From a virus (lineage: Duplodnaviria > Caudoviricetes): a stretch of 51,010 nt of DNA. Location of the stretch: positions 1 to 51,010 of the IMG/VR virus record IMGVR_UViG_3300042922_000517; one strand, given 5' to 3'. Every line of letters begins with the position of its first letter. Within the stretch, counting starts at the first letter, position 1. The notes below the pieces were generated by a model. It saw only the letters and a program-made list of their open reading frames with translations, was not told the DNA's origin and did not search any database. Below are positions 1 to 51,010 of the stretch, piece after piece. Made by a program: the position numbers and the translations under genes.

Positions 1-15
1 TCCGCCAACTGTTCA
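1..15. repeat. 15-bp terminal direct repeat, left copy (TCCGCCAACTGTTCA)
   Basis: Identical to 50996-51010; joining the ends restores a continuous reading frame. Confidence 0.95.
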
Positions 16-260
16 TTAACGGCAACCAATTCTGTAGTGTGCCCATCTACATCCGTCCGCAGCGTGTCAGCTGCAGCGCTGACCGCCTCTAAGCCGTTCT
101 CTAGCTTATTCAGGTTCAAGGCATTCACTGGTGTCCCCGCTTCAGTAATGGTCCCTTCAGAGGGCACGTGCGTTATGCTGCCGTCTGAGTTTGTGGTTTC
201 GATATACGTTCGCGGGCGCTGGACAAGACGATCTTTCCATGTTGTTTTGGTATACGCCAT
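1..260 (-). CDS. 5' part of the tail fibre/tailspike gene that continues at 50995-48835 (not in ORF track)
   Basis: ATG at 260 immediately after the stop of 261..692; reads MAYTKTTWKDRLVQRPRTY...GTPVNALNLNKLENGLE...VNEQLAD, in frame with 48835..51003 across the junction (806 aa total). Confidence 0.9.
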   Translation of the reverse strand, partial: MAYTKTTWKDRLVQRPRTYIETTNSDGSITHVPSEGTITEAGTPVNALNLNKLENGLEAVSAAADTLRTDVDGHTTELVAVNEQLA

Positions 261-8700: not shown

Positions 8701-8998
8701 CCTGGATGTACTGATTCGCGTTCTTCATCGACATCCCATGGCCTACTACGATGCTTGTCAGCCCCGCCATAGCACTTTCCAGTTCACTCGCGGCGCCGAT
8801 AGCATCTTTGACCAGTTTGGCTATTCCCAGGGCTGCTATTGCAGCAGCGACCGCCTTAAAAGCTTTCGACATGCCGTCCGTAGCCTTCTTAACGCTGTTT
8901 TCCATCTGCCCAACCTGCCGCTGGGCATCCCGTATGCCGTCTCGCAATCCGCGAGTCTCGGCTGTAATCAGTATTCGCAGTTCATCAATTGTCGCCAT
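5762..8998 (-). CDS. Tape measure protein
   Basis: Long Ala-rich helical protein with W/F-P periodic repeats and C-terminal LARGGIV..GEAGKEAVIPL; likely start MATIDEL at 8998. Confidence 0.92.
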   Translation of the reverse strand: MATIDELRILITAETRGLRDGIRDAQRQVGQMENSVKKATDGMSKAFKAVAAAIAALGIAKLVKDAIGAASELESAMAGLTSIVVGHGMSMKNANQYIQEYIKDGLVPLTSAVTAYKNLASRGYTEDQIQIVMNRLKDSAAFGRQASYTLGKAVESATEGLKNENSILVDNAGVTKNVAKMWLDYAKAQGISYTELTKQQKITAEVNGIIEETRFQIGDAAKYTDTYAGRIAALTKTMKDIQVSMGQAFMPIANVILPLLQTLANAVARVAAYIASFMQALFGVAKGQTAQAASANQAAAAQINVGDAAEAAGKKAKKAAKEAKGAVASFDEINQLADKSGTSAADDADGAGAGAVGDLGIMPGINDFTAAPIPEAIQAAADEARRILKQLGSDLADLWNVFAGAWSGLRPALQPLVDMKAPIMAAINDMGKTFSQLRDNTLIPIGKYILLDFIPSIVVGFTKSFAPVIASEITWAFETFAKTFRNLTDVVEGLWSGTWLPALENVKNAFLETMPTIAASIQSLLDNTINPFVDYMLNQFLIPVAAQLNETLVPIFADTLVFAMTEFSKTATLVVDTVNALFTSTLMPAVVSLRDAFMSAIPDIGGSLQNLLNGFIKPFVVYMVDDFIVPIVNQFLKVFVPLFTDTLVWSIEEFSKVFRNATDMVNELWSGTWQPAIELVKNAYINAMETIGFSIKSLMDNTIKPFIDFAINDFILPIVKQLEETFIPIFAETLAWAFEETAKAFEWAVELINDVWETTLKPIFEIIKEIVLDTLDIIQSAWEEHGQAILDGLSEVLDKIMKTVQRLWDDVLKPIIMPFLAKIKELWEGTFKDIAKQMMDFVLNLIELGTMIYNKFIDPLINMIIDSLAPAFVKGFNIALNIVTDVIKSIGGVIKGIMEVFNGLITFLLGAFTGDWGKAWEGVKTIFKGVFDSLWSIVKYPLNMIIDGVNQMILGLNSIKIDIPDWVPGFGGEKFGIDIPRIPRLARGGIVDSPTVAMIGEAGKEAVIPLENTSFVNTLASTLGSAVMAAMQMGGNGSAPTGGGDIVVQIDGTTLARIMNPYLEQEQGRIGGAILTTT

Positions 8999-9419
8999 TC
9001 TTTTTAGCACCCCGCTTCCGGCGTTCAGCTTCAGCTGCGTATGCATTTACCCGGGCCTTCATGATTTCCCATGGTTGTTGTACTGGTTTTTGTTCTTTGG
9101 TATTTTCGTTTTCTTGAGGTTCACACAATTTCGGGAAGGCCTTTTCGAAAGGTGGGTACTTCTTAGGCGCATTGACGGCTATTCCCACCAGGGTTGCGAT
9201 AGAGTGCAATAACTCGGCCTGCTGCTTCAGCTCATTTTTGTTAATTTTCTGTTTTGCCTTAATTGCCGCCGCTATTTCCTTAAAAGTCATGTCCCAATAA
9301 AAAACTGCATCCACACCGCACTCAAGCGCGATAGGATACAGCTCGTCATATAACTCTGTTAATGTTTTGTGTCGGTCTGGCGGGTCGGAGTCTTCTACTC
9401 CGCCACTTTCTCCTTCGGA
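8985..9419 (-). CDS. Tail assembly chaperone, -1 frameshift extension (gpGT-like)
   Basis: The -1 frame is open from the T7 slippery run (9419-9425) through ORF 8985..9314. Confidence 0.8.
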   Translation of the reverse strand, partial: SEGESGGVEDSDPPDRHKTLTELYDELYPIALECGVDAVFYWDMTFKEIAAAIKAKQKINKNELKQQAELLHSIATLVGIAVNAPKKYPPFEKAFPKLCEPQENENTKEQKPVQQPWEIMKARVNAYAAEAERRKRGAKKNGDN

Positions 9420-9727
9420 AAAAAACCACTGACCTTAAATACCTCCATCAATACAGGGATAAGGTCCATATAGGATTGACCGGAGTCTACATATTCATCG
9501 TACATATTCAGTACGTCAGTAAATGAAACATTGGCTTGGAATTTTTGCATCGATGCATGCAGGATTGTTAATAGATCCGATACCAGCGGCATGTTGCTTT
9601 CGCTGAGTGATGTTACTACATCCATCGGATTCTTTCCACCCAGTTTTTTCTCCAGGCTCTGACTCGCAGCTGCCGTCAAGCGCAGTTTATATTCTTTACC
9701 AACAGCTTCAAAGGTCGTGTACAACAT
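9395..9727 (-). CDS. Tail assembly chaperone (gpG-like)
   Basis: Between tail tube and TMP genes; ends SGFFPKE at a slippery sequence. Confidence 0.85.
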   Translation of the reverse strand: MLYTTFEAVGKEYKLRLTAAASQSLEKKLGGKNPMDVVTSLSESNMPLVSDLLTILHASMQKFQANVSFTDVLNMYDEYVDSGQSYMDLIPVLMEVFKVSGFFPKEKVAE

Positions 9728-9756
9728 TAATGATCATCCTCTCAAATTTTCACACG

Positions 9757-9785
9757 AAAAAAGCACTCCCCGTAGAGAGTGCCTA
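9757..9785 (-). terminator. Intrinsic terminator after the Pmp3-like moron
   Basis: GGCACTCTC-TACG-GGGAGTGCT followed by a T run on the minus strand. Confidence 0.75.
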
Positions 9786-9803
9786 ATTAATGTGATACGT
9801 GTA

Positions 9804-10004
9804 TTAAAATCTTTGTCCGTGCTCTATAGCATGTACAATACGGTCAGTTCGTTTGTCGGCTTTATATGCATTTACAACCAGTATGGCATGAATAACTCCA
9901 GGGAAATAGGCACAGATCGTCAAAATGCAGCTCAACAAAAACTGGCCGGGCTTCTTACAGCTTAATACGGCTAATGGTGGCACGAAACAAAGCAGGTATC
10001 GCAT
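9804..10004 (-). CDS. YqaE/Pmp3-family small membrane protein
   Basis: MRYLLCFVPPLAV..PGVIHAILVV motif; GGAGGA RBS at 10011-10016 supports start at 10004. Confidence 0.85.
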   Translation of the reverse strand: MRYLLCFVPPLAVLSCKKPGQFLLSCILTICAYFPGVIHAILVVNAYKADKRTDRIVHAIEHGQRF

Positions 10005-10055
10005 TACTTTTCCTCCGTTTTGGTTAGATGCCACCATAATATCACAATAAACCAA

Positions 10056-10478
10056 TTATGTCGTTGGATTTGTAACAGTAATATCAGATTGCAATGAGAA
10101 TGTTGCCGTAAACATCAGAGCAGCGTTGACTGCAGCGGCGCCCATCTTCACAGATACATAGGCGTCAAATTCATGCGTTGTGCCATCTGGATACTCCAGC
10201 TGATAGGTAGCGAGGGTATTAGCTTCTGACAGCCCATTCAGCACACGATAGTTACTTGTCGCTGTGCTATTATCGTATAGGAAATTAAAGGCCAAATCCC
10301 CCAGGTCTTTGATCCCAGGAATGTACTTTTTGACGTTGTCCTTAAGAGTGGTTACTTCTACTTTTTCCGGGTCACCGCCGATTTCTGGAACTTCCATCAG
10401 CAACGGGATTTCGATAAACGAAGAGCCGCCGCTTGCCTTATAGGATAGTGTGGTCTCTTTACTCAATATACCTGCCAT
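10056..10478 (-). CDS. Major tail (tube) protein
   Basis: VPEIGGDPEKVEVTTL..YIPGIKDLG..YPDGT siphovirus tube motif. Confidence 0.9.
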   Translation of the reverse strand: MAGILSKETTLSYKASGGSSFIEIPLLMEVPEIGGDPEKVEVTTLKDNVKKYIPGIKDLGDLAFNFLYDNSTATSNYRVLNGLSEANTLATYQLEYPDGTTHEFDAYVSVKMGAAAVNAALMFTATFSLQSDITVTNPTT

Positions 10479-10493
10479 CTTGCCATTCCTCCT

Positions 10494-10847
10494 TTATTGA
10501 TAAACCAAATTATTGCGAGTATCCACTACTCCGCGGTACCGCATTGTTTTATGCTTAATCCCATCCGGATCCGGTACATCGGCCGCGAACTCTCTCCGCA
10601 GTCCGATACTACCTAACTGCTGTTCAACTGCAGCAGCTATTACACCGGTTGAACGGTCATGCCATATATCGACCTGGACAGCCACATCAGATAGCGGCGA
10701 CAACTTTATTTTCAGTGGATCTGTGTTAGCAATCTCGTAAAAGGATATGTGCGGCAGATCATTAAAGCTGGCTGGGTATGCATCGGATACTGTTACACCT
10801 GGGATAGCAGACAGTAATGCATTCACCTCTGGTTTTATATCGTACAT
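10494..10847 (-). CDS. Tail terminator/completion protein
   Basis: Position; YP..PHISFYE..VQVDIW..HKTMRY pattern. Confidence 0.8.
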   Translation of the reverse strand: MYDIKPEVNALLSAIPGVTVSDAYPASFNDLPHISFYEIANTDPLKIKLSPLSDVAVQVDIWHDRSTGVIAAAVEQQLGSIGLRREFAADVPDPDGIKHKTMRYRGVVDTRNNLVYQ

Positions 10848-37306: not shown

Positions 37307-38740
37307 GTGAGCATTTTGACTGTCGCCATATACATTAGGGTTTCGACAGATGAACAAGCAGAACAAGGCTATTCAATCGATTTTCAAAAAGAAAAGCTAA
37401 TCCATTATTGCAAATCGCAGGACTGGGACGACTACAAATTATACATAGACGATGGATATACAGGAACTAACATGGAAAGACCAGCTTTAAAACGTATGCT
37501 CCGGCATATAAAAGAAAAAAGGGTAACAGCCGTATTGGTCTACAAGTTAGATAGATTGAGTCGGAGGCAACGTGACATTTTAGAGCTTATTGAAGACGAA
37601 TTCGAAAAAAACGGAGCTTCTTTCACTTCTTCTGTTGAAAAAATCGACACTTCTACTGCTTTCGGCAAAGCTATGCTTGGTGTTTTAGCGGTTTTCGCAC
37701 AATTGGATAGGGATATGATTATCGAACGGACTACTGCCGGCAGGCGGCAAAGGGTTAGCCAGGGTAAATGGTATGGAGGGCGTATACCTTTTGGATATAG
37801 TTGGAACAGGGAATTACAGCAATTAGAAATAATACCAGAAGAAGCTCGCATAATTCGAGAATCATATAGATTATATCTAAATGGTCACTCGCGGTTGTCT
37901 ATTGCCGAATGGGCTGCTCCTCGCTGTCTTAGCAGGACAATAGATCATTCTGTAATCAGGGACATTCTTTCAAGACAAATTTATACTGGGAATCTTGGGT
38001 ATGTCGGGAATATCTATGAAGGAAAACATGAAGCCATCATTGATCAGGCTACATGGGATGCGGTTCAGATTGAGTTAGAAAAAAGAAAGGATGGAGCCAC
38101 CCCGATAGGAGTATACTTGTTAACTGGATTACTCCAATGCGGAGTATGTGGCGGAAATGTAGTCCATGTAAGAAGGAAATCAAAACATAAAAATAAGGAA
38201 TATGTCTATGAATTCTATGGATGTAAAGATCAACATGTAAGGCCAAAAGATAGAAGAGCCGGAAAAGCCTGTACAATGGGTTATATTAGGAGAGACGAAG
38301 TTGAAAAGTTTGTGATTTCAAAAATAAAGGATATCTCCTTAGACCCTACAAAAATAACTAATATGTTGAAAAACAAAAAAGGCGAAGTTTCTGATTTAAA
38401 TGAACAAGTCATGCAATTGAACGATTCACTTAAAAAAGTAAATACAAATCTCGAAAATCTATATGATGCAATTCAGAATGGAGACATTAAGGCTTCAGCT
38501 GTAAGTGATAGAATTAAAAACCTCGAATTACAAAGAGATAGACTCGAAGAAGATCTGGATGATATTTTAGACATTAACCCCAAAGCAATTGACGAAAAGA
38601 AAACACAAAAACTATTCCACGATATAGGAACTGCATGGGAATTTTTCACTGAGGACGAACAAAAGATAGCTGTCCGGAAGTTGGTAAAATCCATTTCTCT
38701 TATCAAAGGTACCCCACCAGAAATTGAATGGTTCTTCTAA
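37307..38740 (+). CDS. int: Large serine integrase
   Basis: YIRVST catalytic Ser, DRLSR, recombinase domain, CGVCG zinc ribbon, coiled coil. Confidence 0.96.
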   Translation: MSILTVAIYIRVSTDEQAEQGYSIDFQKEKLIHYCKSQDWDDYKLYIDDGYTGTNMERPALKRMLRHIKEKRVTAVLVYKLDRLSRRQRDILELIEDEFEKNGASFTSSVEKIDTSTAFGKAMLGVLAVFAQLDRDMIIERTTAGRRQRVSQGKWYGGRIPFGYSWNRELQQLEIIPEEARIIRESYRLYLNGHSRLSIAEWAAPRCLSRTIDHSVIRDILSRQIYTGNLGYVGNIYEGKHEAIIDQATWDAVQIELEKRKDGATPIGVYLLTGLLQCGVCGGNVVHVRRKSKHKNKEYVYEFYGCKDQHVRPKDRRAGKACTMGYIRRDEVEKFVISKIKDISLDPTKITNMLKNKKGEVSDLNEQVMQLNDSLKKVNTNLENLYDAIQNGDIKASAVSDRIKNLELQRDRLEEDLDDILDINPKAIDEKKTQKLFHDIGTAWEFFTEDEQKIAVRKLVKSISLIKGTPPEIEWFF

Positions 38741-43593: not shown

Positions 43594-43800
43594 ATGATTC
43601 GGATTAAATTACAGGAGATACTTGGCGAGAGAGGAATAACACAGAAGCAACTTTCGGAACTTTGCAAGTTGAGGCCTACAACTATAAGTGAGTTATGCAA
43701 TAACATCCGTTCTACCATTAACCGCGAACATCTTGAAAAGGTCATGGTAGCTCTTGAGATTAAGGATATATCTGAAATAATCGAATATAAGGAGGAATAG
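43594..43800 (+). CDS. Cro/C1-type (YozG-like) HTH regulator
   Basis: IRIKLQEIL.ERGITQKQLS..TISELCNN..ISEIIEY; paralog of 48554..48766. Confidence 0.88.
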   Translation: MIRIKLQEILGERGITQKQLSELCKLRPTTISELCNNIRSTINREHLEKVMVALEIKDISEIIEYKEE

Positions 43801-43996: not shown

Positions 43997-44016
43997 TCAC
44001 TGACGGGGTTTCTTTT
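43983..44016 (+). terminator. Intrinsic terminator
   Basis: CCCCGCCAGT-ATAATC-ACTGACGGGG-TTTCTTTT. Confidence 0.7.
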
Positions 44017-44083
44017 GCTTAATACATAGAAATATTTACCTCCATCTGATAAACTGTCCGTATTAATCCATATGGAGGTATTT

Positions 44084-44827
44084 ATGAATAAGAAAAAGTT
44101 AATAGTATCTGCTATTGCTGCGTTGATGTTGGTATCATCTTTCACTGCCGGCGCTTATGCTGCCACTAAGTTCAAATTGATTGTAAATGGCAAAGCATCC
44201 TCTGCAGATATCCGCGAAATCAATGGATCTACTTATGTTCCTTTAAAGGATGTCGCTGAATTGCTTGGAGCAAAGGTCGGATTTGACAACAACACAAAGA
44301 CAGTAACCATTACCAGCCAAGGGCAGAGCTCTCCATCTCAAACAAGCACACCTGCTGCAGCTGCTCAAAATAGCCGCACGAAGCCTGCAGCAATCGGATC
44401 TACTATTCCTTTTGCCGTTGATTCTGTAGTAAATAAATACAGTGGGCAGGTAACTATATCTCAGATTATCCGCGGGGACGAAGCGTGGAGCATGATTCAA
44501 AGCACTAATCAATTCAATGAAGCACCAAAGGATGGATTCGAATATTTACTTGCTAAAGCTAAAGTTAGTATTACAGCAAATAATAAGGCAGCTGACGGCG
44601 CTGTAGATATCTGGAGTGGTGACTTCACCTTAGTTTCAGCAGCCGGCACTGATTATGATCGGCTGAGTGTAGTCTTACCTGATCCCGGAATAGATGCTAA
44701 TATTTATGCTGGATCCTCGAAAGAGGGCTGGGTAGCATTCCAAGTTAAAAAGGATGATTTATCTCCGGTTATCAGCTATGCACGTAAGTATGACGGTACC
44801 GGCGGCGCTTGGTTTAAAACAAACTAA
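44084..44827 (+). CDS. Secreted surface protein: signal peptide, copper-amine-oxidase-N (stalk) domain, DUF4352-like domain
   Basis: MNKKKLIVSAIAALML..AYA; STYVPLKDVAELLGAKV; S/T/Q linker; C-terminal Ig-like domain (IYAGSSKEGWVAFQV). Confidence 0.8.
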   Translation: MNKKKLIVSAIAALMLVSSFTAGAYAATKFKLIVNGKASSADIREINGSTYVPLKDVAELLGAKVGFDNNTKTVTITSQGQSSPSQTSTPAAAAQNSRTKPAAIGSTIPFAVDSVVNKYSGQVTISQIIRGDEAWSMIQSTNQFNEAPKDGFEYLLAKAKVSITANNKAADGAVDIWSGDFTLVSAAGTDYDRLSVVLPDPGIDANIYAGSSKEGWVAFQVKKDDLSPVISYARKYDGTGGAWFKTN

Positions 44828-44833
44828 ATTATT

Positions 44834-44867
44834 AAAAGGCCTCGGGGAATTCCTCGGGCCTTTTTTT
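44834..44867. terminator. Bidirectional intrinsic terminator
   Basis: AAAAGGCCTCGGGG-AATT-CCTCGGGCCTTTTTTT between convergent genes. Confidence 0.8.
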
Positions 44868-44874
44868 GTGGCGT

Positions 44875-45276
44875 CTATTTAATATGATCTTTTAACGCCT
44901 CCCCTACCTCAGTTGTATACCGAGTAAGTCGTAGGCTGATTTCTGTCCGCATCACGTCCCGAGTCATTCCAAAGCGCTCCTGATATCCCCGGAAGAAGAT
45001 AGTATTATACGTGATGAAATCGTCCTGCGTATCCTCAACCACTTTGATATCTCGCTTCTTGAGCTCCTGACGCAACTGGTAGACATCTTTCACAATCTGC
45101 TTTTGGATATAACGGCCGGCAGTTACATAGGCTCTTCGGAGTACGTTTCCAGAGAGCTCTATTTCCTTTATGCTCTTGGCGACCATTGTATCTATGTATG
45201 GCAGCAGGATAAGATCCCGGATCATTGTTCTTTCTTCAACTGTCAGCATTTTATGTCCAGAGTTCACATTGCTCAT
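44875..45276 (-). CDS. YhjD-like protein
   Basis: EERTMIRDLILLP..DVYQLRQELKKRDIKV..FRGYQERF resembles Bacillus YhjD; SOS box upstream. Confidence 0.6.
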   Translation of the reverse strand: MSNVNSGHKMLTVEERTMIRDLILLPYIDTMVAKSIKEIELSGNVLRRAYVTAGRYIQKQIVKDVYQLRQELKKRDIKVVEDTQDDFITYNTIFFRGYQERFGMTRDVMRTEISLRLTRYTTEVGEALKDHIK

Positions 45277-45304
45277 GAATTCGCCCCCATGAACCTATTA
45301 TATG

Positions 45305-45318
45305 CGAACTTATGTTCT
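45305..45318. promoter_or_regulatory. Firmicute LexA (SOS) box
   Basis: CGAAC-TTAT-GTTCT, about 30 bp upstream of 44875..45276. Confidence 0.75.
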
Positions 45319-45330
45319 TTTATCCACAAG

Positions 45331-45358
45331 AAAAAAGCCCCTGCGTTGGCAGAGGCTT
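45331..45358 (-). terminator. Terminator after the lysis genes
   Basis: AAGCCTCTGC-CAAC-GCAGGGGCTTTTTT on the minus strand. Confidence 0.75.
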
Positions 45359-45420
45359 ACCGGTGCTTCCGGATTTGGTTGCCTTCATATTAGCATTTTC
45401 AGAATGACTTGTCTACTCCT

Positions 45421-45774
45421 TTATTGTACTGGATTTTGTGACTTAAGATAGGCTGCCTCAATGGCTGCCCGGATCTCCGCAGGCGTGACCTTGATTCCCT
45501 TGCGCCCTAACTGCTGAGTGGCATACTCCAAGGCTTGCGCAAGTTTGATCTGACTTTCGGAGCTTTTATAAACCGTCTCTGCATAGGCATAAGCCTCACC
45601 GGCCACCTTGTGCAGCAGCTCCCGCTGTGTCGCGTCCAACTTACTATCCAGATAATTAACAGCCTTTGCCTTGACAACGCCTACAGCAGACAACAGGACG
45701 GCAACCAGGGCACCTACGAGGGCCGTTACAACAGTCGTCACATACGGCTGAGCCGCTTCTACAATCGGTTGCAT
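45421..45774 (-). CDS. Holin (LL-H type)
   Basis: One N-terminal TM; AYAYAE..KLAQAL..IRAAIEAA; follows the endolysin. Confidence 0.8.
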   Translation of the reverse strand: MQPIVEAAQPYVTTVVTALVGALVAVLLSAVGVVKAKAVNYLDSKLDATQRELLHKVAGEAYAYAETVYKSSESQIKLAQALEYATQQLGRKGIKVTPAEIRAAIEAAYLKSQNPVQ

Positions 45775-46523
45775 TATTTAGTCTCCTTTGTCGTCAATGT
45801 AGCTGTCTTACTGATATTGTTCCATTCAACTTGCGCGCCAATTGCTTCGCCAATCGCAGCCAGCGGCACATATACCCGTCCTTCAATGAGCACACTCTCT
45901 GCTGCCAGCCGGTTACCGTTTACTACTGTGCCTGCTTTATCTACTCTCACGTCATTTGCCTCCTTCAGATACCGTTCGATTTGTGCCAGAACCTTTGCCG
46001 TCTGTGTCTCTGTGGGCTGCGCTCCCGCCTGCAACTGCTTAATCGATAGGCCAAATGTCATTTCAAAGTGCGGGCCGTCAAAGATGCTCTCAAAGTCACC
46101 ACCCCAGAAGAACCCCAGCGCCTTTGCTTCCTCCACCACTTCATTCCAATCCTTCACCTTGTCGCCGTCACCGTCCCGGAGCATGTCCCAGGACACACTT
46201 GAACCGTTTGGTAGCAGCAGCGCAAAATCGATGGCAAGTCCGTAATTATGATTGCTCGAGCCGCCGATTGCATTCGTAACCCATTTTTCCTTTGGTTGCG
46301 CCTTAACATGTGAGAGACCAACAGCATTTAGTTGTTCCTGCGTCCGGCTTTTTGCGTATAAGGCGTTCTGTTCGGCCTTGGTGCGTAGCCCCTGCGTGAT
46401 TACAATCGGCACGCCCCGGGAATAAGACCGTTCAATAAGCGCATTCGTAGCTGCCAGTACTGCCGGTTGTAATCCGACTAGTCGGGACTTTGATTTGAGT
46501 TTCACCTGATCAAGCGTTAGCAT
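45774..46523 (-). CDS. Endolysin: M15 L-Ala-D-Glu peptidase with C-terminal copper-amine-oxidase-N-like domain
   Basis: ITQGLRT, SNHNYGLAIDF, WGGDF and DGPHFE motifs; C-terminal GRVYVPL..IGAQVEWNN. Confidence 0.92.
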   Translation of the reverse strand: MLTLDQVKLKSKSRLVGLQPAVLAATNALIERSYSRGVPIVITQGLRTKAEQNALYAKSRTQEQLNAVGLSHVKAQPKEKWVTNAIGGSSNHNYGLAIDFALLLPNGSSVSWDMLRDGDGDKVKDWNEVVEEAKALGFFWGGDFESIFDGPHFEMTFGLSIKQLQAGAQPTETQTAKVLAQIERYLKEANDVRVDKAGTVVNGNRLAAESVLIEGRVYVPLAAIGEAIGAQVEWNNISKTATLTTKETK

Positions 46524-46887
46524 CTTGTTCCCCCTCTCTCTTTACCGGTTGGAAGGACATAAACAGATCCTGCCTCCGGGTATACATGAGTACGGTCAGG
46601 ATCAGCAGCCCCAATGTTGTGCCGGTCTGCGCAATAGCCCAGCCTTGCGACTTCAGCGCAGCATAGACGGCGGAATCTCCGGAGGCGCTTGAGAAACGAA
46701 TCCAGAAGGCCACGGCCATCTTCACCGTATACGCCCCCAGAAAGAAGAACACTGCCAACATGAACAGACTTACCACCCGGGCGCGGAATCTCTTCCGGAA
46801 GTACAAAAAAAGCGCGGCCATAAGCAGCAGCGCACAAACGAATGAAATACCATATGCAATCAATAACAAAATATCAATGCCCCCCAT
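46510..46887 (-). CDS. Three-TM membrane protein, holin-like
   Basis: Three hydrophobic helices; overlaps the endolysin start. Confidence 0.7.
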   Translation of the reverse strand: MGGIDILLLIAYGISFVCALLLMAALFLYFRKRFRARVVSLFMLAVFFFLGAYTVKMAVAFWIRFSSASGDSAVYAALKSQGWAIAQTGTTLGLLILTVLMYTRRQDLFMSFQPVKREGEQDANA

Positions 46888-47074
46888 ACTGATGATCCCC
46901 CTTATCGTAAATCAAAAATGGCGCAAATCCGTTGTTAAGGATCTCCTCCTGTATCTCTTTGGAGGTATCTTTATATCTGGCAATAGAAAAAGCTACCCGG
47001 CGTGATGCTTGGCTGATTTCTTTATCTAACTCGCCGTGCCGGGGGAATAAACGGTGAATCCACTTTATAAACAC
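46874..47074 (-). CDS. Small lysis-module protein
   Basis: Coupled ORF with amphipathic N-terminus. Confidence 0.6.
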   Translation of the reverse strand: MFIKWIHRLFPRHGELDKEISQASRRVAFSIARYKDTSKEIQEEILNNGFAPFLIYDKGDHQYGGH

Positions 47075-47076
47075 GG

Positions 47077-47379
47077 TTATCCACCCCTGTCCTCATTATT
47101 TTCGGGATTTACGGCATTATGATCAATCTTTAGCCGCTGCAGCACTTCCAGTGTCGGCTGCATAAACGCCTTGCGCTCGCTATCCAGGATCTCCTGAAGG
47201 TGGTCATTATCTTGCAAGGCCCTGTCCAGCATTTCGCGCGGTACCAACTTACCAGTTGCCACGGCCCTCCACTGTGCATAAGCGAAGATCAGAAACAAGA
47301 AAAGTAGCACGACAGAAAGTCCATACTTTTCTACCAACGGCAATATTCTCTCTAAATCGGAAATTCGTTCTGCTTCCAT
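47077..47379 (-). CDS. Single-TM plus coiled-coil protein, holin/antiholin-like
   Basis: EKYGLSVVLLFLFLIFAYAQW then coiled coil; first gene of the lysis module. Confidence 0.65.
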   Translation of the reverse strand: MEAERISDLERILPLVEKYGLSVVLLFLFLIFAYAQWRAVATGKLVPREMLDRALQDNDHLQEILDSERKAFMQPTLEVLQRLKIDHNAVNPENNEDRGG

Positions 47380-47412
47380 TCCCCCGCTCCCTTCTCTCTC
47401 TGTAATGTATAT

Positions 47413-47440
47413 AAAAAGACACGCCCCTGAGGGCGTGTCT
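47413..47440 (-). terminator. Terminator after the tyrosine recombinase
   Basis: AGACACGCCC-TCAG-GGGCGTGTCT-TTTT. Confidence 0.8.
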
Positions 47441-47445
47441 GAATT

Positions 47446-48438
47446 TTATTGTACTAAATACCGTTTGTGTTGTTCCCGCTTACGTTCTTCGGTAATTCTG
47501 GCATACCGGAGTGTGGTCTGCGGATCCGAATGGCCCATAAGTTCCTGCACAGCGACCAACTCCGCGCCATTATTAAGCGTGAGCGTTGCAAAGGTGTGCC
47601 GCAGCACATGCGGGCTCACCTTGTCCTGAAGCCCAGCTGTACGGGCAATAACGGCTATCTCCCGCTGTATGCCCCGTTTGGTCAGGCGGCGATACTCCTT
47701 GCGCTCTGTCACCATCAGAGCCCCGCAGTTATCATTCCGGCTCTTCAGATATTTGTTGAGGTGGTACATTGCTTTGAACGAAAAGTAAACCTCCCGCTCC
47801 TTATTCCCCTTACCGATCACTCGACAACTCATAGATTGTTGATTGATTGCGTCCCGGTCCATCCCGTAGACCTCAGACAGCCGGCAGCCTGTTGCATACA
47901 TGATTTCGATAAAGGCCCGCTGCCGGACCGTCTTGCAGGATTCCCGCAGCATCTCCAACTCAGGGATTGTCAGAGCTTTCGGCAGCCGCTTCTCCAGCTT
48001 CGGCGTTTTTAGCTTGGCGGATGGGTCACGGGGAATAATCTCCTCCCCTGAAAGCCAGCCGAAGAAGCTTTTAAGTACGGACAACTTCTTGCCGATCGTA
48101 CTCATCTTGAGGTGATTGAATTGTCCAAGGTATGCCCGTATATCGGCGGCTGTGACGTTGTCTGTCCGCTTGCGAACGTGACGGAAGAATATGTGTAGGT
48201 CCAAGGCATATCCGTCCAGCGTCAACGGACTGAGCCCTTCCAGGCGCTTTGATGATAGAAACATCTTGAGCTTCTCTTCGCCATCCGGGTGCGGTTCATC
48301 TTCTTTGATACGCTGAATATGGTAATCAGACACAATGATAGATAGTATAGACTTTGTTCGTTCAACTTCTAAATCAGGGAAAACGTTATAAATCACGGCC
48401 ACGACATCGGACAATAGCTGCTCACTTGCATTATTCAT
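47446..48438 (-). CDS. XerC/D-like tyrosine recombinase
   Basis: SAM-like N-terminal domain; complete catalytic set TGCRLSE, GKGNKER, HVLRH, GHS, TLRY. Confidence 0.95.
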   Translation of the reverse strand: MNNASEQLLSDVVAVIYNVFPDLEVERTKSILSIIVSDYHIQRIKEDEPHPDGEEKLKMFLSSKRLEGLSPLTLDGYALDLHIFFRHVRKRTDNVTAADIRAYLGQFNHLKMSTIGKKLSVLKSFFGWLSGEEIIPRDPSAKLKTPKLEKRLPKALTIPELEMLRESCKTVRQRAFIEIMYATGCRLSEVYGMDRDAINQQSMSCRVIGKGNKEREVYFSFKAMYHLNKYLKSRNDNCGALMVTERKEYRRLTKRGIQREIAVIARTAGLQDKVSPHVLRHTFATLTLNNGAELVAVQELMGHSDPQTTLRYARITEERKREQHKRYLVQ

Positions 48439-48451
48439 GATGTCCTCCTAG

Positions 48452-48535
48452 TGATACGTTTATCGTAGTTATAGCATCAATATTATACTGATACTATTTA
48501 CGAATCAATAGGCAAATGGTACTATATTCGTATCA
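48452..48535. promoter_or_regulatory. Three 16-bp operators (TGATWCGWWWATMGTA) between recombinase and HTH
   Basis: 48452-48467 (+), 48492-48507 (-), 48520-48535 (-). Confidence 0.75.
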
Positions 48536-48553
48536 CGTAAGGAGGTAACATCC

Positions 48554-48766
48554 ATGATTATAATTAAGCTATCTACTGTATTGAACGAAGCAAACATTTC
48601 TCAACGTGAACTGTCCAGGAGAACAGGAATAAGGCAGCCAACGATTAGTGAAATGTGCTTGAACAAAGCTAAGTCACTACCGGTAGAGAACCTGGACAAG
48701 ATTTGCAGCGAATTGGACTGTGAACTATCCGATATCATTGAATACAGAAAAGAGCCGCTGGAGTGA
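48554..48766 (+). CDS. Cro/C1-type (YozG-like) HTH regulator, divergent from the recombinase
   Basis: ISQRELSRRTGIRQPTISEMC..LDCELSDIIEY; AAGGAGG RBS. Confidence 0.9.
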   Translation: MIIIKLSTVLNEANISQRELSRRTGIRQPTISEMCLNKAKSLPVENLDKICSELDCELSDIIEYRKEPLE

Positions 48767-48784
48767 TCCGGCCGCTCTTTTTTT
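48747..48784. terminator. Hairpin terminator between HTH and tail gene
   Basis: AAAAGAG...CTCTTTTTTT. Confidence 0.6.
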
Positions 48785-48797
48785 AACGTCCATTTTC

Positions 48798-48838
48798 GGT
48801 TTTCCGGTATTGCGCAGTATGGTCCGTTTGTCCATTAA
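48798..48838. repeat. Distal copy of a 41-bp imperfect direct repeat (candidate recombination site)
   Basis: 27/41 ungapped identity to 50974-51010 joined to 16-19; identical core CGCAGTAT at 48813-48820; overlaps the tail-gene stop codon. Confidence 0.65.
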
Positions 48839-51010
48839 GCAACGCCCACTCCGAAGAACGTTAGGTTGTTGCCGGCAGTGTTGATAATCTCAATTTTGAT
48901 TAAGCCCATCCCGCTGATCGAAACGGTGTGATTTGCCGTATTGAGCGTGTAGTCAACTCCGTTAATCCGCGCCGTTACATCGCCAGCAGAAGTGAACGTG
49001 AAATCGAGAGTGACGCCGTATTTAAAGTGGTTGTACAGATTAACCTTAAACACTTTGCCTGCTGCAGCTGTGGTCAGGCTGCTATTATAGCCACCTGTCC
49101 GTGCAGTGAGCTTTGCACAGTTGCCGATCTCTGACCGAACCTCTGGATTGTTGAACCCAATTTTACAGGGTTCCGTTACCTTTATGGTCTCCTTGTTAAA
49201 CTCCGAAAATAAGAACTCCGCTTGATAGATGTGACCCTCTTGCCTGTAGTGTAGACCGTCCGGCACCAACGACTGAATATTATCCACCTTTAGCTGCAGC
49301 ATCTTGGTATAAGTATAATTGTCAACCAATTCGAGGTTGTATTCTTCCGCCAATTCCCGGATGACACTTAAAGATATGCTAGTAGTCTCGGCTGACGTAT
49401 ACCCTGGGCTATACATCGGATATGCAATCATTGTAGCCTGCGGCGTCACCAAGAATGGCTGGATGTTATTCTCAAAACACCATTCAATAATACCTCGCAT
49501 GGCCGCACGGAATGATCCGATGTATTCCGCTGTTGAACTGTTTTCCATCGGATCATTCAACCCGTGTCGGATGCCGATCATCTTCACGTCAGCATAGTGT
49601 GTGTTGGTCTTAATGATTCCGTTTATATTCGCAAGGGCCCAGGTTGCGTCCTTACCGCCGAATCCCGCGTTATAAATCCGCGCAACCGTACTGCCAGTCT
49701 CAGCCCGGATCAGCTCCTGCAGTAGCGTACAGTACGCGTCCGCTGGAGTATGGTCAGTACCGATTGTGTTGGCGCTGGTCGGATTCGTTGTACTTTCCGT
49801 AGTGCTGTCGCCTAAAAAAGCAACCGGAAACTTCTCGCCCTTTTTCCATGCAGAACAAGCATCAGCAAGCGTATAAAGTCTCTTCCGCGTTACAGTGAAA
49901 TTCAGCTTATCTGCGCTTATTGACTTGTCTGGTAACTCAAAATCCGCATTGGCACCTGTTGGTTTCAGCCCGTCTACCATGATTTGCTTGTAACCGAAAG
50001 GGGAATATACTTTACCACCAATGATCCGGCATAGCACGAAGGCATACCCGGTAGTGGATGCAAATATTGTCTGCGAAAACAGATCTCCGGTTGATCTGTC
50101 TACACAGATATAAGTAGCCTGGGTATCGTTATAAGTTATTGATCCGGTTTTAGCCAGAACAAAACCATCATCATTACTTACATAGACATTGTTTGTAAAT
50201 GCGGCTGTCTTGTTGGTTGTATTAATCGATAACTTAGTAGCGCCATCAATGATTTCTGCCCATTTTTTCGTGAGCAACTTTCCGATTCCCACAAAATTAT
50301 CCGGAATGTCAAAAATGGCATTAGCCGATTTTATTGCGGCTCCATTGACTGTTATGTTTTGAAATCCGAATGGACAAGAGACTTTTCCAGATATAACAGA
50401 CGCCAAAACATATGCGTAGGTTAACGTACCCTCTACGATGGGTTTAACAAATAAGTTTTTCGTCGTTCGATCCACGCAAATGTATGAAACTACGCTGTCA
50501 TCATATGTTATCGAGGATGCGTTAGCTAATACTGTCCCGTCATCATTATAGACATATGTGCTGGGCAACGAAGCTGTTTTGGTTGTCGTATTAAAGTTCA
50601 ACTTAGCGTTGCCAAGGATTTCTGCCCACTTCATTGTTTTGAGTGCCGCGACACCGACTGAATTATCGGCAACGCCTGTAGACTGATATACCGTTCCTGC
50701 CGTCCAGCCCGAGCCATTCCAGTAATACCATTTACCATCTGCAGTAACTACATAAGTATTTGTGTTGCCTGTCGGGAAAGCAGCCTGCAATGCGCTCACT
50801 GTAGCATAAGTGCCCTTCGGAGATCCACTTGCTAGACTTGCGACCAGTGTATCAACATATACCTTTTCTGCTTTTGCGGAAACTGCATTATTAGTCGCGT
50901 CTAGGCTGGTTTGTTCAGCTTTGCTTGTGGCAAGAGCATTAACCTCCGTCTTATTGGCTTTAACCTCATCCAAGGTTAATAGTTCTTCCGCAGTATCCGC
51001 CAACTGTTCA
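48835..51010 (-). CDS. 3' part of tailspike gene: two approx. 120-aa repeats plus SGNH/GDSL esterase domain
   Basis: SGNH blocks FLGDSTT, NAGFGG, HGLND, DGLHY; duplicated KWAEI..NDDG..YICVDR..PFG unit; continues from 260..1. Confidence 0.88.
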   Translation of the reverse strand, partial: EQLADTAEELLTLDEVKANKTEVNALATSKAEQTSLDATNNAVSAKAEKVYVDTLVASLASGSPKGTYATVSALQAAFPTGNTNTYVVTADGKWYYWNGSGWTAGTVYQSTGVADNSVGVAALKTMKWAEILGNAKLNFNTTTKTASLPSTYVYNDDGTVLANASSITYDDSVVSYICVDRTTKNLFVKPIVEGTLTYAYVLASVISGKVSCPFGFQNITVNGAAIKSANAIFDIPDNFVGIGKLLTKKWAEIIDGATKLSINTTNKTAAFTNNVYVSNDDGFVLAKTGSITYNDTQATYICVDRSTGDLFSQTIFASTTGYAFVLCRIIGGKVYSPFGYKQIMVDGLKPTGANADFELPDKSISADKLNFTVTRKRLYTLADACSAWKKGEKFPVAFLGDSTTESTTNPTSANTIGTDHTPADAYCTLLQELIRAETGSTVARIYNAGFGGKDATWALANINGIIKTNTHYADVKMIGIRHGLNDPMENSSTAEYIGSFRAAMRGIIEWCFENNIQPFLVTPQATMIAYPMYSPGYTSAETTSISLSVIRELAEEYNLELVDNYTYTKMLQLKVDNIQSLVPDGLHYRQEGHIYQAEFLFSEFNKETIKVTEPCKIGFNNPEVRSEIGNCAKLTARTGGYNSSLTTAAAGKVFKVNLYNHFKYGVTLDFTFTSAGDVTARINGVDYTLNTANHTVSISGMGLIKIEIINTAGNNLTFFGVGVA
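50996..51010. repeat. 15-bp terminal direct repeat, right copy; part of the proximal 41-bp site
   Basis: Identical to 1-15; overlaps by one base the core CGCAGTAT at 50989-50996. Confidence 0.95.

What the first reader, a model, noticed from the sequence alone, without database searches (positions are those of the whole stretch)
47446..51010. Candidate integron-like tail-cassette system: tyrosine recombinase plus direct-repeat sites around the tailspike C-terminus
Seen: on the minus strand the tail gene contains TTAATGAACAGTTGGCGG-ATACTGCG-GAAGAACTATTAACC just after its N-terminal anchor (codons ..NEQLADTAEE.., across the window junction). Over its stop codon it contains TTAATGGACAAACGGACC-ATACTGCG-CAATACCGGAAAACC. 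The two align without gaps at 27/41, share an identical 8-bp core, are in direct orientation and lie 2176 bp apart. An HTH gene and an intact tyrosine recombinase follow immediately, although the phage already has a serine integrase with its own attP. Crossover in the core would delete the esterase module cleanly, leaving ..QLADTAQYRKTENGR-stop, and any cassette inserted at the core would fuse to the anchor. Known: tyrosine recombinases exchange strands across 6-8-bp cores; described tail switches (Mu Gin, P1 Cin) and the R64 Rci shufflon invert DNA between inverted sites. Inference: here receptor-binding modules may be excised, captured or swapped as promoterless cassettes, diversifying host range.
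Basis: partly seen in the sequence, partly recalled or inferred. Interest (0 to 1): 0.9.

Follow-up and report, generated by a model that had tools for sequence, protein, structure and literature searches.

The report
Swappable phage tail-fibre tip cassette
In this soil phage the enzyme-bearing end of a tail fibre lies between two short DNA sequences that related phages keep while swapping everything between them, and a recombinase gene sits beside the outer one, so the phage may trade host-recognition parts as cassettes.

Summary

Each 41-mer holds a real conserved element, but the shared 8-bp core is not it.
- S is a 20-bp site just after the tail-gene stop. It scores 26.9 bits on a matrix built from relatives only. 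It is where homology with relatives starts. In 4 of 12 rec loci, direct S copies bracket small gene cassettes.
- J1 is a 17-nt in-frame block coding EQLAD. It uses the same codons in 4 of 4 otherwise unrelated tail genes.

In four phage pairs homology stops at the last base (one pair: one base past it) of J1. In one pair it resumes at S around unrelated 2.3 and 2.8 kb interiors.

rec is found in only 3 of 116 related genomes, whereas J1 and S are common, so its role is inferred.

Verdict: a tail-fibre tip cassette locus. Clean core-to-core excision is not supported. Unchecked scan notes report the same theme in at least 31 other genomes. In print I found only the Rin inversion shufflon.

The parts
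3..260 (-). 5' part of the tail-fibre gene: the N-terminal anchor, 86 aa, ending ...VAVNEQLA. It continues across the window junction into 51009-48835.
   Evidence: ORF listing. The joined ORF is 806 aa. It matches phrog_17334 over residues 1-67, the same N-terminal family as the neighbouring 465-aa tail protein.
50994..51010 (-). J1: a 17-nt in-frame junction block (TGAACAGTTGGCGGATA, codons EQLAD). Its first 15 nt are the window's terminal repeat and occur again at 1-15.
   Evidence: Exact 17-mer in 20 viral contigs, every one in frame as EQLAD. Same codons in 4 of 4 EQLAD genes found without using J1 as the query. Homology of 4 phage pairs ends at its last base, or one base past it in one pair. 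A Logan unitig of run X1 ends at 51010.
48835..50993 (-). Tail-fibre tip cassette: the C-terminal about 720 aa, with a conserved linker domain and a GDSL/SGNH esterase.
   Evidence: Pfam Lipase_GDSL at residues 396-598 of the 724-aa fragment. There is no full-length relative: the best non-self hit is 34% identical over 46% of the query, and the other hits are mosaics carrying other enzymes. In run X1 it forms a unitig of its own, 48796-51010.
48806..48827 (-). S: the conserved 20-bp site (consensus T-n-GGAC-n-ATACTG-n-GCA-n-TA). It starts 7 nt after the tail-gene stop.
   Evidence: 26.9 bits on a matrix built from 14 sites of relatives. Homology with L002, L003 and L004 begins at 48827, 48820 and 48824. 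Aligned in 9 loci. The consensus comes from 32 distinct sites. It is a unitig branch point in runs X1 and X2.
48757..48778 (+). Terminator-like hairpin between the convergent HTH and tail genes.
   Evidence: Terminator scan. The hairpin is kept in the aligned relatives.
48554..48766 (+). Cro/C1-type HTH gene (70 aa), divergent from the recombinase gene.
   Evidence: Pfam HTH_26, E = 1.6e-17. An HTH_26 gene holds the same place in L002, L003, L004, L005, L006, L008, L010, L013 and L296.
48439..48553 (.). Divergent control region between the HTH and recombinase genes, with short inverted repeats that could be operators.
   Evidence: Read directly from the sequence. The scan found no strong sigma-70-type promoter match inside this stretch. 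Its function is inferred.
47446..48438 (-). Xer-like tyrosine recombinase ('rec', 330 aa).
   Evidence: Pfam Phage_integrase plus the SAM-like N-terminal domain. XerC, XerA and XerD models score 209-215 bits, all below their equivalog cut-offs. The closest solved structure is E. coli XerD, E = 1.9e-38. The catalytic positions are invariant in 10 of 10 sequences.
47417..47440 (-). Terminator after the recombinase gene. There is no S copy here.
   Evidence: Terminator scan. The sequences after the rec stop codon in 13 loci share no S-like motif.

Best explanation
SHOWN BY COMPARISON.
- The tail-fibre gene has a constant N-terminal anchor and an exchangeable tip cassette.
- The cassette starts at an in-frame 17-nt junction block (J1, codons EQLAD). 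It ends at a 20-bp site (S) a few bases after the stop codon.
- Both sequences are kept at the DNA level across otherwise unrelated phages. Homology between relatives breaks at them.
- Further direct S copies bracket small accessory-gene cassettes between the tail gene and the recombinase.

INFERRED.
- The Xer-like recombinase, controlled by the divergent HTH protein, recombines S with S. This could happen between co-resident phage genomes, or between a phage and an excised circle. The result is that cassettes are inserted, lost or exchanged at S.
- Exchange of the fibre tip needs a second crossover at J1. That crossover is made either by the same enzyme on a different, non-compatible site (as in engineered recombinase-mediated cassette exchange) or by short-homology recombination.
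- Because J1 and S are unlike, the tip is not simply deleted. In most arrays neighbouring S copies have different central 6-mers, which would also hinder deletion.
For: S is a real site.
- It scores 26.9 bits, against a best of 20.6 in 50 shuffles.
- 34 pattern matches in 25 of 116 related genomes, against 0 for the reversed control.

S is a module boundary.
- Homology of the window with L002, L003 and L004 starts inside S.
- Two prophages of one record set (L011, L012) become identical from S onward.
- BLAST segment ends fall near S 65 times, against 5.3 expected.

Cassettes exist.
- One cassette, with an Arc-like 69-aa gene, sits between or after S copies in five different left contexts: L002, L004, L013, L113 and G011:C136.
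- A sixth locus (L296) has the gene (82% identical) right after an S copy; I did not compare its left flank.
- Its genes are small accessory genes.

J1 is a real junction.
- The exact 17-mer occurs in 20 viral contigs, all in frame.
- It uses the same codons in 4 of 4 genes found without J1 as query. The chance estimate is about 3e-7.
- Segment ends fall near J1 22 times, against 2.9 expected.
- In 4 pairs homology ends at its last base (one pair: one base beyond it). In L002 versus L113 it resumes at S after unrelated 2319-nt and 2837-nt interiors.
- An anchor-less J1-to-S unit lies between lonB and lonA in a bacterial chromosome.

Links between rec and S.
- S lies 230-640 nt upstream of rec, in the same orientation, in 11 of 12 viral loci.
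- In the genome loci an S-like site of at least 10 bits lies upstream of rec in 12 of 70 loci, against 3 of 124 control stretches (P = 4e-4).
- Arrays of two or more S occur in 4 of 12 rec loci, against 1 of about 30 loci without rec (P = 0.018, rough counts).

In the community the window seems to come from, Logan unitigs break at S and at J1.
Against: - No recombination event was observed. Contigs cannot show rare junctions.
- rec is dispensable for the layout. Four complete or near-complete phages with J1, two of which also have S, have no homologue.
- rec at E <= 1e-90 is in 3 of 116 related genomes. The J1 13-mer is in 50 of them (63 matches, 12 for the control) and S is in 25.
- Of 8 genomes with a J1-to-S locus, 2 have rec.
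- J1 and S share little. The best likeness is a 9-mer in inverted orientation, with shuffle P = 0.027.
- There is no S after the rec gene, so rec does not itself sit in a two-site cassette.
- S could have another primary role. In Geobacillus phage phiOH2, whose 8-kb tail-to-lysis stretch I fetched holds no recombinase gene, S lies between an xkdX-like gene and the holin gene.
- The array counts are small and partly made by eye.
Confidence: 0.45

Rival explanations
1. Linker model. J1 and S are conserved module-junction sequences at which general or phage-encoded homologous recombination joins modules. The Xer-like recombinase has nothing to do with them; for example it has another, unknown late function.
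For: - J1 and S are far more common than rec: 50 and 25 of 116 genomes, against 3.
- Complete phages with J1 have no rec, and two of them also carry S.
- Pairs that swap tips share kilobases of homology upstream, so only the junction itself needs explaining.
- Tail-fibre proteins of this kind are broadly mosaic.
Against: - 17-20 bp is very short for RecA-type exchange (from general knowledge).
- S keeps 20 bp across genera while its flanks are unrelated.
- S lies next to rec in 11 of 12 viral loci, and arrays are enriched next to rec.
- Direct S copies bracket promoterless mini-cassettes, which is the pattern site-specific systems leave.
Confidence: 0.3
2. Resolution model. rec and S form a single-recombinase Xer/dif-like or Cre/lox-like pair that resolves or circularises phage genome multimers. 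The cassette arrays are by-products.
For: - The enzyme is Xer-type with no arm-binding domain, and its gene lies next to one site.
- Homologues sit at the same place, between the last tail gene and the holin gene, in Clostridium phage phiCp-D and Terrisporobacter phage TPELB_ph1. phiCp-D also has a ParM gene.
- Xer-like genes inside structural modules of Bacillus phages have been noted, with their function left open (PMC9703825, passages read).
Against: - It does not explain S in phages without rec, S at module boundaries, or S-bounded cassettes found in five left contexts.
- The window phage has a serine integrase, so it presumably integrates rather than living as a plasmid.
Confidence: 0.12
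3. The two 41-mers are direct copies of one site, and strand exchange in the shared 8-bp core excises the 2176-bp esterase module as a circle and captures others (integron-like).
For: - 27 of 41 with an identical octamer, reached by 1 of 40 shuffles in a restricted search.
- The window's J1 region scores higher on the S matrix (8.0 bits) than the J1 regions of L002, L003 and L013, which score -10.4, -9.4 and -3.0.
- One X2 contig joins the S side to the J1 side.
Against: - The octamer is not kept after J1 in the three other genes examined.
- 8.0 bits is at chance level genome-wide.
- The X2 joint runs from 48825 to 50987 with no shared letters, so it keeps both octamers. That is not the core-to-core product, and the letters between are 'not known'.
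- The enzyme fails the integron-integrase model.
Confidence: 0.07
4. Selfish-module model. The HTH-rec pair is itself a mobile insertion that targets S, a site the phages keep for another reason.
For: - Its left edge is exactly S and its right edge is exactly the rec stop codon.
- It is rare, in 3 of 116 genomes.
- Loci without rec have S followed directly by the next gene, where rec loci have S, HTH, rec and then that gene.
Against: - There is no second site on its right side, although site-specific insertion would leave one.
- No circular or empty-versus-filled pair of otherwise identical phages was found.
Confidence: 0.1

Closest known systems
Rin shufflon of Bifidobacterium prophages (Mavrich et al. 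2018, PMC6109161; abstract and passages read)
   Same: An Xer-like tyrosine recombinase without an arm-binding domain lies at the end of the receptor-binding-protein genes, downstream of Dit. It is separate from the phage integrase. The fibre has a constant N-terminal part and variable C-terminal parts joined at short crossover sites.
   Different: Rin stores several tips in both orientations and switches between them by inversion at an 11-bp site. This window has one tip and no stored alternative or inverted repeat. The two boundary sequences differ from each other. The variation seen is replacement between phages, not inversion.
Integrons (IntI, attI, attC-ended cassettes); features recalled from general knowledge
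   Same: A tyrosine recombinase gene lies next to a primary site. Some relatives carry arrays of promoterless small genes separated by direct copies of a site. Site arrays also occur without the enzyme.
   Different: The enzyme is not IntI: 86 bits against a cut-off of 265. S is a plain 20-bp site with no conserved flanks or long hairpin. The array lies behind the tail operon, not behind a platform promoter. One boundary lies inside a coding sequence.
Single-recombinase Xer/dif modules (XerS/difSL, XerH/difH, archaeal XerA); recalled, with model scores
   Same: The best family and structure matches are XerC, XerD and XerA. The recombinase gene lies next to its presumed site.
   Different: All scores are below the equivalog cut-offs. 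The setting is a phage tail module. The site occurs several times per locus and at module boundaries. No link to chromosome segregation is seen.
Xer-like recombinase gp50 in the structural module of Bacillus 'Tyroviruses' (PMC9703825; passages read)
   Same: An Xer-type gene is embedded among late structural genes of a Bacillales phage, with a candidate site beside it. The authors leave its function open.
   Different: gp50 lies between the neck and tape-measure genes. Its proposed site has 11-bp inverted repeats around a 6-bp core, after the stop codon. No cassettes or fibre junctions were reported in the passages I read.
Mu Gin and P1 Cin tail-fibre switches (recalled)
   Same: The crossover site lies inside the fibre gene, at the joint between the constant and variable parts.
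   Different: These use serine invertases and invert between two stored tips. Neither is the case here.

Membership tests
Integron | Integron-type integrase (IntI family with its extra domain) | tested here: not met
   NCBIfam integron integrase TIGR02249 scores 86.4 bits against a cut-off of 265, and NF011946 scores 53 against 435. The PDB match to IntI4 covers only residues 252-317.
Integron | Primary site next to the integrase gene, with an adjacent array of cassettes that each end in a site | tested here: inconclusive
   S lies about 380 nt upstream of rec in the window, which has only one S. Arrays of 2-4 S with cassettes occur in 4 of 12 rec loci: L002, L004, L013 and L296.
Integron | attC-type sites: imperfect inverted repeats of 55-140 bp that fold as hairpins | tested here: not met
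   In 32 distinct S sites, conservation is limited to about 20 bp, with no conserved flanks. One cassette has an inverted partial S about 75 nt before its end, but this is not general.
Xer/dif (single-recombinase type) | Xer-type two-domain recombinase reaching a family equivalog threshold | tested here: not met
   XerC 215 bits against 335, XerD 209 against 330, XerA 212.8 against 220, XerS 100 against 267. The fold family is Xer-like.
Xer/dif (single-recombinase type) | One dif-like site (two inverted arms around a 6-8 bp spacer) beside the gene, used for dimer resolution | tested here: inconclusive
   S has a well conserved left arm, a 6-bp centre (TGCGCA in 14 of 32 sites, TGTTCA in 5 of 32) and a weak right arm. 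Dimer resolution cannot be tested with these tools.
Rin-type tail-fibre shufflon | Xer-like recombinase flanking the receptor-binding-protein genes, distinct from the integrase | tested here: met
   rec follows the fibre gene, and the integrase is a serine recombinase 9 kb away. In siphovirus relatives the order is Dit, J1 gene, S, HTH, rec, Tal.
Rin-type tail-fibre shufflon | Several stored tip segments in both orientations, separated by inverted crossover sites | tested here: not met
   There is one tip and no reverse-strand tip ORF. No inverted repeat of note was found in 44000-51010. No strand-changing joint was seen in the contigs.
Rin-type tail-fibre shufflon | Relatives caught in different inversion states | tested here: not met
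   Relatives differ by replacement of the interior, not by inversion.

The most novel reading that the evidence does not exclude
This is a natural recombinase-mediated cassette-exchange system. One Xer-like enzyme recognises two non-compatible sites: J1, in frame at the anchor-tip joint, and S, behind the gene. Fibre tips are then swapped between phages without being lost. Small accessory genes are captured at S. The enzyme works in trans on the many prophages that carry only the sites. Anchor-less tips can be parked in the host chromosome as a reservoir, as between lonB and lonA in G011.
Probability: 0.25. Interest if true: 0.85.

Novelty: new variant of a known kind. Interest (0 to 1): 0.62.

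Why it matters
Host range in tailed phages is set largely by fibre tips. How those tips move between unrelated phages is usually put down to undefined mosaicism.

This locus gives two defined, short and testable DNA junctions. It also gives a candidate enzyme for that traffic in soil Bacillales phages. The same site appears to collect small accessory genes.

If the recombinase proves active on these sites, the result would be a simple natural tool for exchanging fibre tips. It would also suggest a job for the Xer-like 'second integrases' found between tail and lysis genes in two isolated Firmicutes phages and in many prophages. If it proves inactive, the sharply conserved 17-nt and 20-nt junctions still need a mechanism.

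Tried and rejected
- Shufflon or inversion. No inverted repeats of note and no reverse-strand tip were found. Rejected for this window.
- Known RNA element at S. The Rfam scan of 48400-49000 gave only sub-threshold, terminator-like matches.
- GC shift of the cassette. None is clear: 0.40-0.51 inside against 0.38-0.50 outside.
- Close relatives among isolated phages. There is no DNA match, and the best protein match of rec is 37.9% identical.
- Relatives of the window's own anchor. Only matches of 56% identity or less were found. Ten of these 11 loci have no J1-like sequence (one has a 2-mismatch 13-mer), and none has S or rec.
- Exact searches for the window's S with its flank and for its anchor DNA found nothing.
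- The metagenome scan for rec gave only about 6 close relatives, all short or already known.
- A chromosomal target for S. In 5 genomes, hits with 2 mismatches were about as many as in the control. Good copies in G011 were all at S loci.
- Run X3 holds 85% of the sampled words, but only in short low-depth contigs, so I drew nothing from it.
- The X2 joint (48825 to 50987) could not be resolved because the letters between are 'not known' and read laying is capped at one call.
- Of the 72 matches to the S pattern in viral contigs, about 50 lie inside long ORFs of unrelated phages, and 19 of those are one conserved gene. I set them aside as unrelated, judging by eye.
- The 414-aa and 453-aa proteins of the chromosomal unit have no relative in my loci and no Pfam family.
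- Supplementary files of the papers were not opened.

Full report
THE OBSERVATION.

The window is an IMG/VR virus record of 51,010 bp whose first and last 15 bases are identical, so it closes to a circle of 50,995 bp.

Gene order on the minus strand:
- a tail-fibre gene that runs from 260 to 3 and on from 51009 to 48835 (806 aa);
- a convergent HTH gene at 48554-48766, on the plus strand;
- a tyrosine recombinase gene at 48438-47446;
- holin-like genes and an M15 endolysin gene.

They match at 27 of 41, share ATACTGCG and lie 2176 bp apart.

Family assignments:
- The fibre carries a GDSL/SGNH esterase domain.
- The HTH is Cro/C1-type, Pfam HTH_26.
- The recombinase has the catalytic and SAM-like domains of the Xer type. 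Its XerC, XerA and XerD scores of 209-215 bits are all under the equivalog cut-offs. The integron-integrase model scores only 86 bits against 265. Its nearest solved structure is E. coli XerD.
- A large serine recombinase (37307-38740) and a LexA-like repressor form the lysogeny module.

THE DISTAL SITE IS REAL.

A search of viral contigs with the recombinase gave 24 loci. Twelve of them (L002-L013) are 60-93% identical to it.

In the loci whose match reaches that end (L002, L003, L004, L006, L007, L013) it ends within a base of the recombinase stop codon; in L005, L009 and L010 it runs further.

An alignment of nine loci shows a conserved block there, in front of a terminator hairpin, while the DNA to its left is unrelated.

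I built a weight matrix from 14 sites of relatives, leaving out the window's own site. On it the distal site ('S') scores 26.9 bits. The best score in 50 shuffled genomes was 20.6, and the mean of the best scores was 11.9.

From 32 distinct sites the consensus is T-n-GGAC-n-ATACTG-n-GCA-n-TA. Nothing is conserved outside about 20 bp.

S lies 230-640 nt upstream of rec, in the same orientation, in 11 of 12 viral loci. L008 has none.

The recombinase family is widespread in Bacillales and Clostridia. 454 stretches in the species genomes encode a relative, and 79 loci were kept. An S-like site of at least 10 bits lies upstream of rec in 12 of 70 loci, against 3 of 124 control stretches. That gives P = 4e-4.

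S BRACKETS CASSETTES.

In L002, L004 and L013, and in L296 from genome G124, two to four direct S copies lie between the tail gene and the HTH-rec pair.

One cassette carries an Arc-like 69-aa gene, sometimes with a second small gene. It starts right after an S copy in five different left contexts:
- after a 118-aa ORF (L002);
- after a 78-aa ORF (L004);
- after a 703-aa tail gene (L013);
- after a 1008-aa tail gene (L113);
- in a bacterial chromosome (G011:C136).

In those five, the left flanks are unrelated up to S and the right side is homologous from S on. The same gene (82% identical) also follows an S copy in G124, where I did not compare the left flank.

The cassette genes are small accessory genes: Arc-like, the Phage_gp49_66 family, and unknowns.

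No S follows the rec stop codon in any of 13 loci.

Arrays are more frequent next to rec: 4 of 12 loci, against 1 of about 30 S loci without rec (P = 0.018). These counts are mine and approximate, and L113 is too short to classify.

THE PROXIMAL SITE.

That is rank 5 of 101,990 positions, and shuffled genomes hold 3.8 such sites on average. By this measure it is at chance level.

The pairwise 27 of 41 was reached in 1 of 40 shuffles, under a search space I restricted after the fact.

The left part of the 41-mer is nevertheless something real.
- The 15 bases that code EQLAD are identical in the window, L002, L003 and L013. The proteins on both sides are unrelated in these genes.
- Among all loci not fetched with this block as the query, every EQLAD in a long ORF uses these codons: 3 of 3, or 4 of 4 with the window.
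- With the window's own codon usage, the chance of this is about 3e-7.
- The octamer that follows is not kept.

I call the 17-mer TGAACAGTTGGCGGATA 'J1'. An exact search of viral contigs found it in 20 stretches. In all 20 it is in frame as EQLAD, and I judged 18 of the host ORFs to be tail-like.

Variants with up to two mismatches number 34 across my loci, against 0.39 expected.

The window's 15-bp terminal repeat is the first 15 bases of J1.

J1 AND S ARE CASSETTE BOUNDARIES.

Four pairs of phages share 78-92% identical DNA in the 120 nt upstream of J1 (up to 2.97 kb by BLAST) and lose all likeness at its last base, or one base beyond it in L109/L115. The pairs are L002/L113, L106/L110, L109/L115 and L111/L116.

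In L002 versus L113, homology at 91.6% over 2601 nt ends at the last base of J1. It is absent over 2319 nt and 2837 nt respectively. It resumes at the first bases of S, at 88% to the end of the short contig. That is a replaced cassette with both flanks kept.

Across 43 loci, the ends of BLAST segments fall near S 65 times (5.3 expected) and near J1 22 times (2.9 expected). Gene ends in general were not used as a control.

S of at least 13 bits follows the J1-bearing gene in 10 of 19 J1 loci. Most of the rest end before the gene does.

In siphovirus-type relatives the order is tape measure, Dit, J1 gene, S, optional cassettes, HTH, rec, Tal.

In one genome (G011, Paenibacillus sp. DMB5 by the record title of L026) a J1 copy with one mismatch lies between lonB and lonA. 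Only three sense codons precede it. It opens a 414-aa ORF followed by a 453-aa ORF, S, the Arc cassette and a degenerate S. This is an anchor-less J1-to-S unit outside a prophage.

THE SOURCE COMMUNITY.

Three soil-metagenome runs hold the stretch as Logan contigs. Two of them may be the source of the window, so they are not independent.

In X1 and X2 the contigs break with a 30-base overlap at 48796-48825, which is at S. In X1 one contig spans exactly 48796-51010, from S to J1. Another X1 contig follows the window up to 48825 and then continues with other sequence.

In X2 one contig of depth 22.9 joins 48825 to 50987. The tool notes 'skips 2161, between: not known', with 24 letters on the short side and no shared letters. 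Whether it is an empty allele or another cassette cannot be told from this output.

Contigs cannot show rare variants, so no ongoing recombination has been shown.

AGAINST A NECESSARY ROLE OF THE RECOMBINASE.

Of ten virus records with J1 that I searched, four complete or near-complete ones (95-100%) have no match at all. Two of those four also have S. Three records have only distant tyrosine recombinases, with E-values from 4.5e-5 to 4.2e-21. The remaining three are 20-67% complete and also have no match.

In 116 genomes of the genus of G011:
- the J1 13-mer is in 50 genomes (63 matches, 12 for the reversed control);
- the S pattern is in 25 genomes (34 matches, 0 for the control);
- rec at E <= 1e-90 is in 3 genomes.

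Ten loci in eight of these genomes have J1 followed by S on the same strand, 1.8-4.0 kb apart. Nine of the ten are in prophage tail modules. Only two of the eight genomes have rec.

S also lies between an xkdX-like gene and the holin gene in Geobacillus phage phiOH2. The 8-kb tail-to-lysis stretch I fetched there holds no recombinase gene, and homology with another phage starts at S.

J1 AND S COMPARED.

In direct orientation they share little beyond GG...ATA. In inverted orientation J1 shares the 9-mer AACTGTTCA with the S copies whose centre is TGTTCA. The shuffle P is 0.027.

In three of five arrays (L004, L109, G124) an S with centre TGTTCA stands upstream of the last one, whose centre is TGCGCA in L109 and G124 and TATTCA in L004. 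In L004 and L109 the TGTTCA copy is the first in the array.

I tested the inverted likeness after reading an earlier scan note about an inverted in-frame site in another phage (e1-5866634). I treat it as a lead only.

WHAT IT MOST LIKELY IS.

Shown:
- two conserved short sequences delimit an exchangeable fibre-tip cassette;
- S also delimits small accessory cassettes.

Inferred:
- the Xer-like enzyme next to S recombines S sites, under control of the HTH protein;
- tip exchange needs a second crossover at J1, made by the same enzyme on a non-compatible site or by short-homology recombination.

The linker-only model, with no role for the enzyme, is a serious rival because the sites are far more common than the enzyme.

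COMPARISON WITH WHAT IS KNOWN.

- Rin shufflon of Bifidobacterium prophages. This is the closest system in print. It has an Xer-like recombinase beside the receptor-binding-protein genes, but it acts by inversion among stored tips (PMC6109161, passages read).
- Xer-like genes in structural modules of Bacillus phages. These are noted with their function left open (PMC9703825, passages read).
- Homologues of rec. They sit between the last tail gene and the holin gene in Clostridium phage phiCp-D (37.9% identical) and Terrisporobacter phage TPELB_ph1 (36.2%). Both are annotated only as integrase.
- Integrons. The array logic is shared, but the enzyme and the site type are not.
- Literature searches. 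Three full-text searches found no paper that describes cassette exchange of fibre tips by such an enzyme. I did not open supplements.
- Earlier scan notes. These unchecked AI notes report the same theme in at least 31 other genomes, including sites without a recombinase. They are leads, not support.

VERDICT.

The locus is a new variant of recombinase-associated tail-fibre variation. The cassette boundaries are well supported. The enzyme's role and any ongoing activity are unproven.

Noticed in passing
L278 (G011:C136) 7310-10630: An anchor-less J1-to-S unit lies between lonB and lonA of a Paenibacillus chromosome. A J1 copy with one mismatch is preceded by only three sense codons. It is followed by 414-aa and 453-aa ORFs, S, the Arc-like cassette, a 64-aa membrane ORF and a degenerate S.
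   Followed up: partly
window 1-15 and 50996-51010: The record's 15-bp terminal repeat equals the first 15 bases of J1. A Logan unitig of run X1 ends at the same base. This suggests that the assembly broke at a junction shared by several sequences in the sample.
   Followed up: partly
L195 (Geobacillus phage phiOH2) 6008-6025: An S-type site lies right after an xkdX-like 44-aa gene and before the holin terminator and promoter. The 8-kb stretch fetched holds no recombinase gene. Homology with contig L171 starts at this site.
   Followed up: partly
L276 (Clostridium phage phiCp-D) 4950-5927; L277 (Terrisporobacter phage TPELB_ph1) 3911-4906: Homologues of the recombinase (36-38% identical) sit between the last tail gene and the holin gene in two isolated phages. 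Both are annotated only as 'integrase'. TPELB_ph1 also has a second, larger integrase, and phiCp-D has a ParM gene.
   Followed up: no
window 43594-43800: A second HTH_26-type small gene is about 38% identical to the homologues of the one beside the recombinase (the L002 and L010 HTH proteins). It lies in the accessory region between the lysis genes and the integrase.
   Followed up: no
window 48821-48838, compared with L013 5330-5362: The bases just left of the window's S (...GGACAAAC) resemble the 3' end of the Arc-like cassette in L013 and L002 (...GGGCAAAC, ...GGTACAC). It looks as if the fibre gene's last bases came from a cassette end.
   Followed up: no
L002 5192-5205 and L013 5280-5293 (minus strand): Inside the Arc-like cassette an inverted partial S copy lies about 75 nt before the terminal S, at the point where the optional second gene is inserted. 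It could form a hairpin with the terminal S.
   Followed up: no
L003 4355-5587; L290-L295: The J1-to-S interval often holds a second gene after the tip. Examples are a Wzy_C-like membrane protein of 410 aa and ORFs of 353-448 aa. The cassette may therefore carry a partner gene along with the tip.
   Followed up: no
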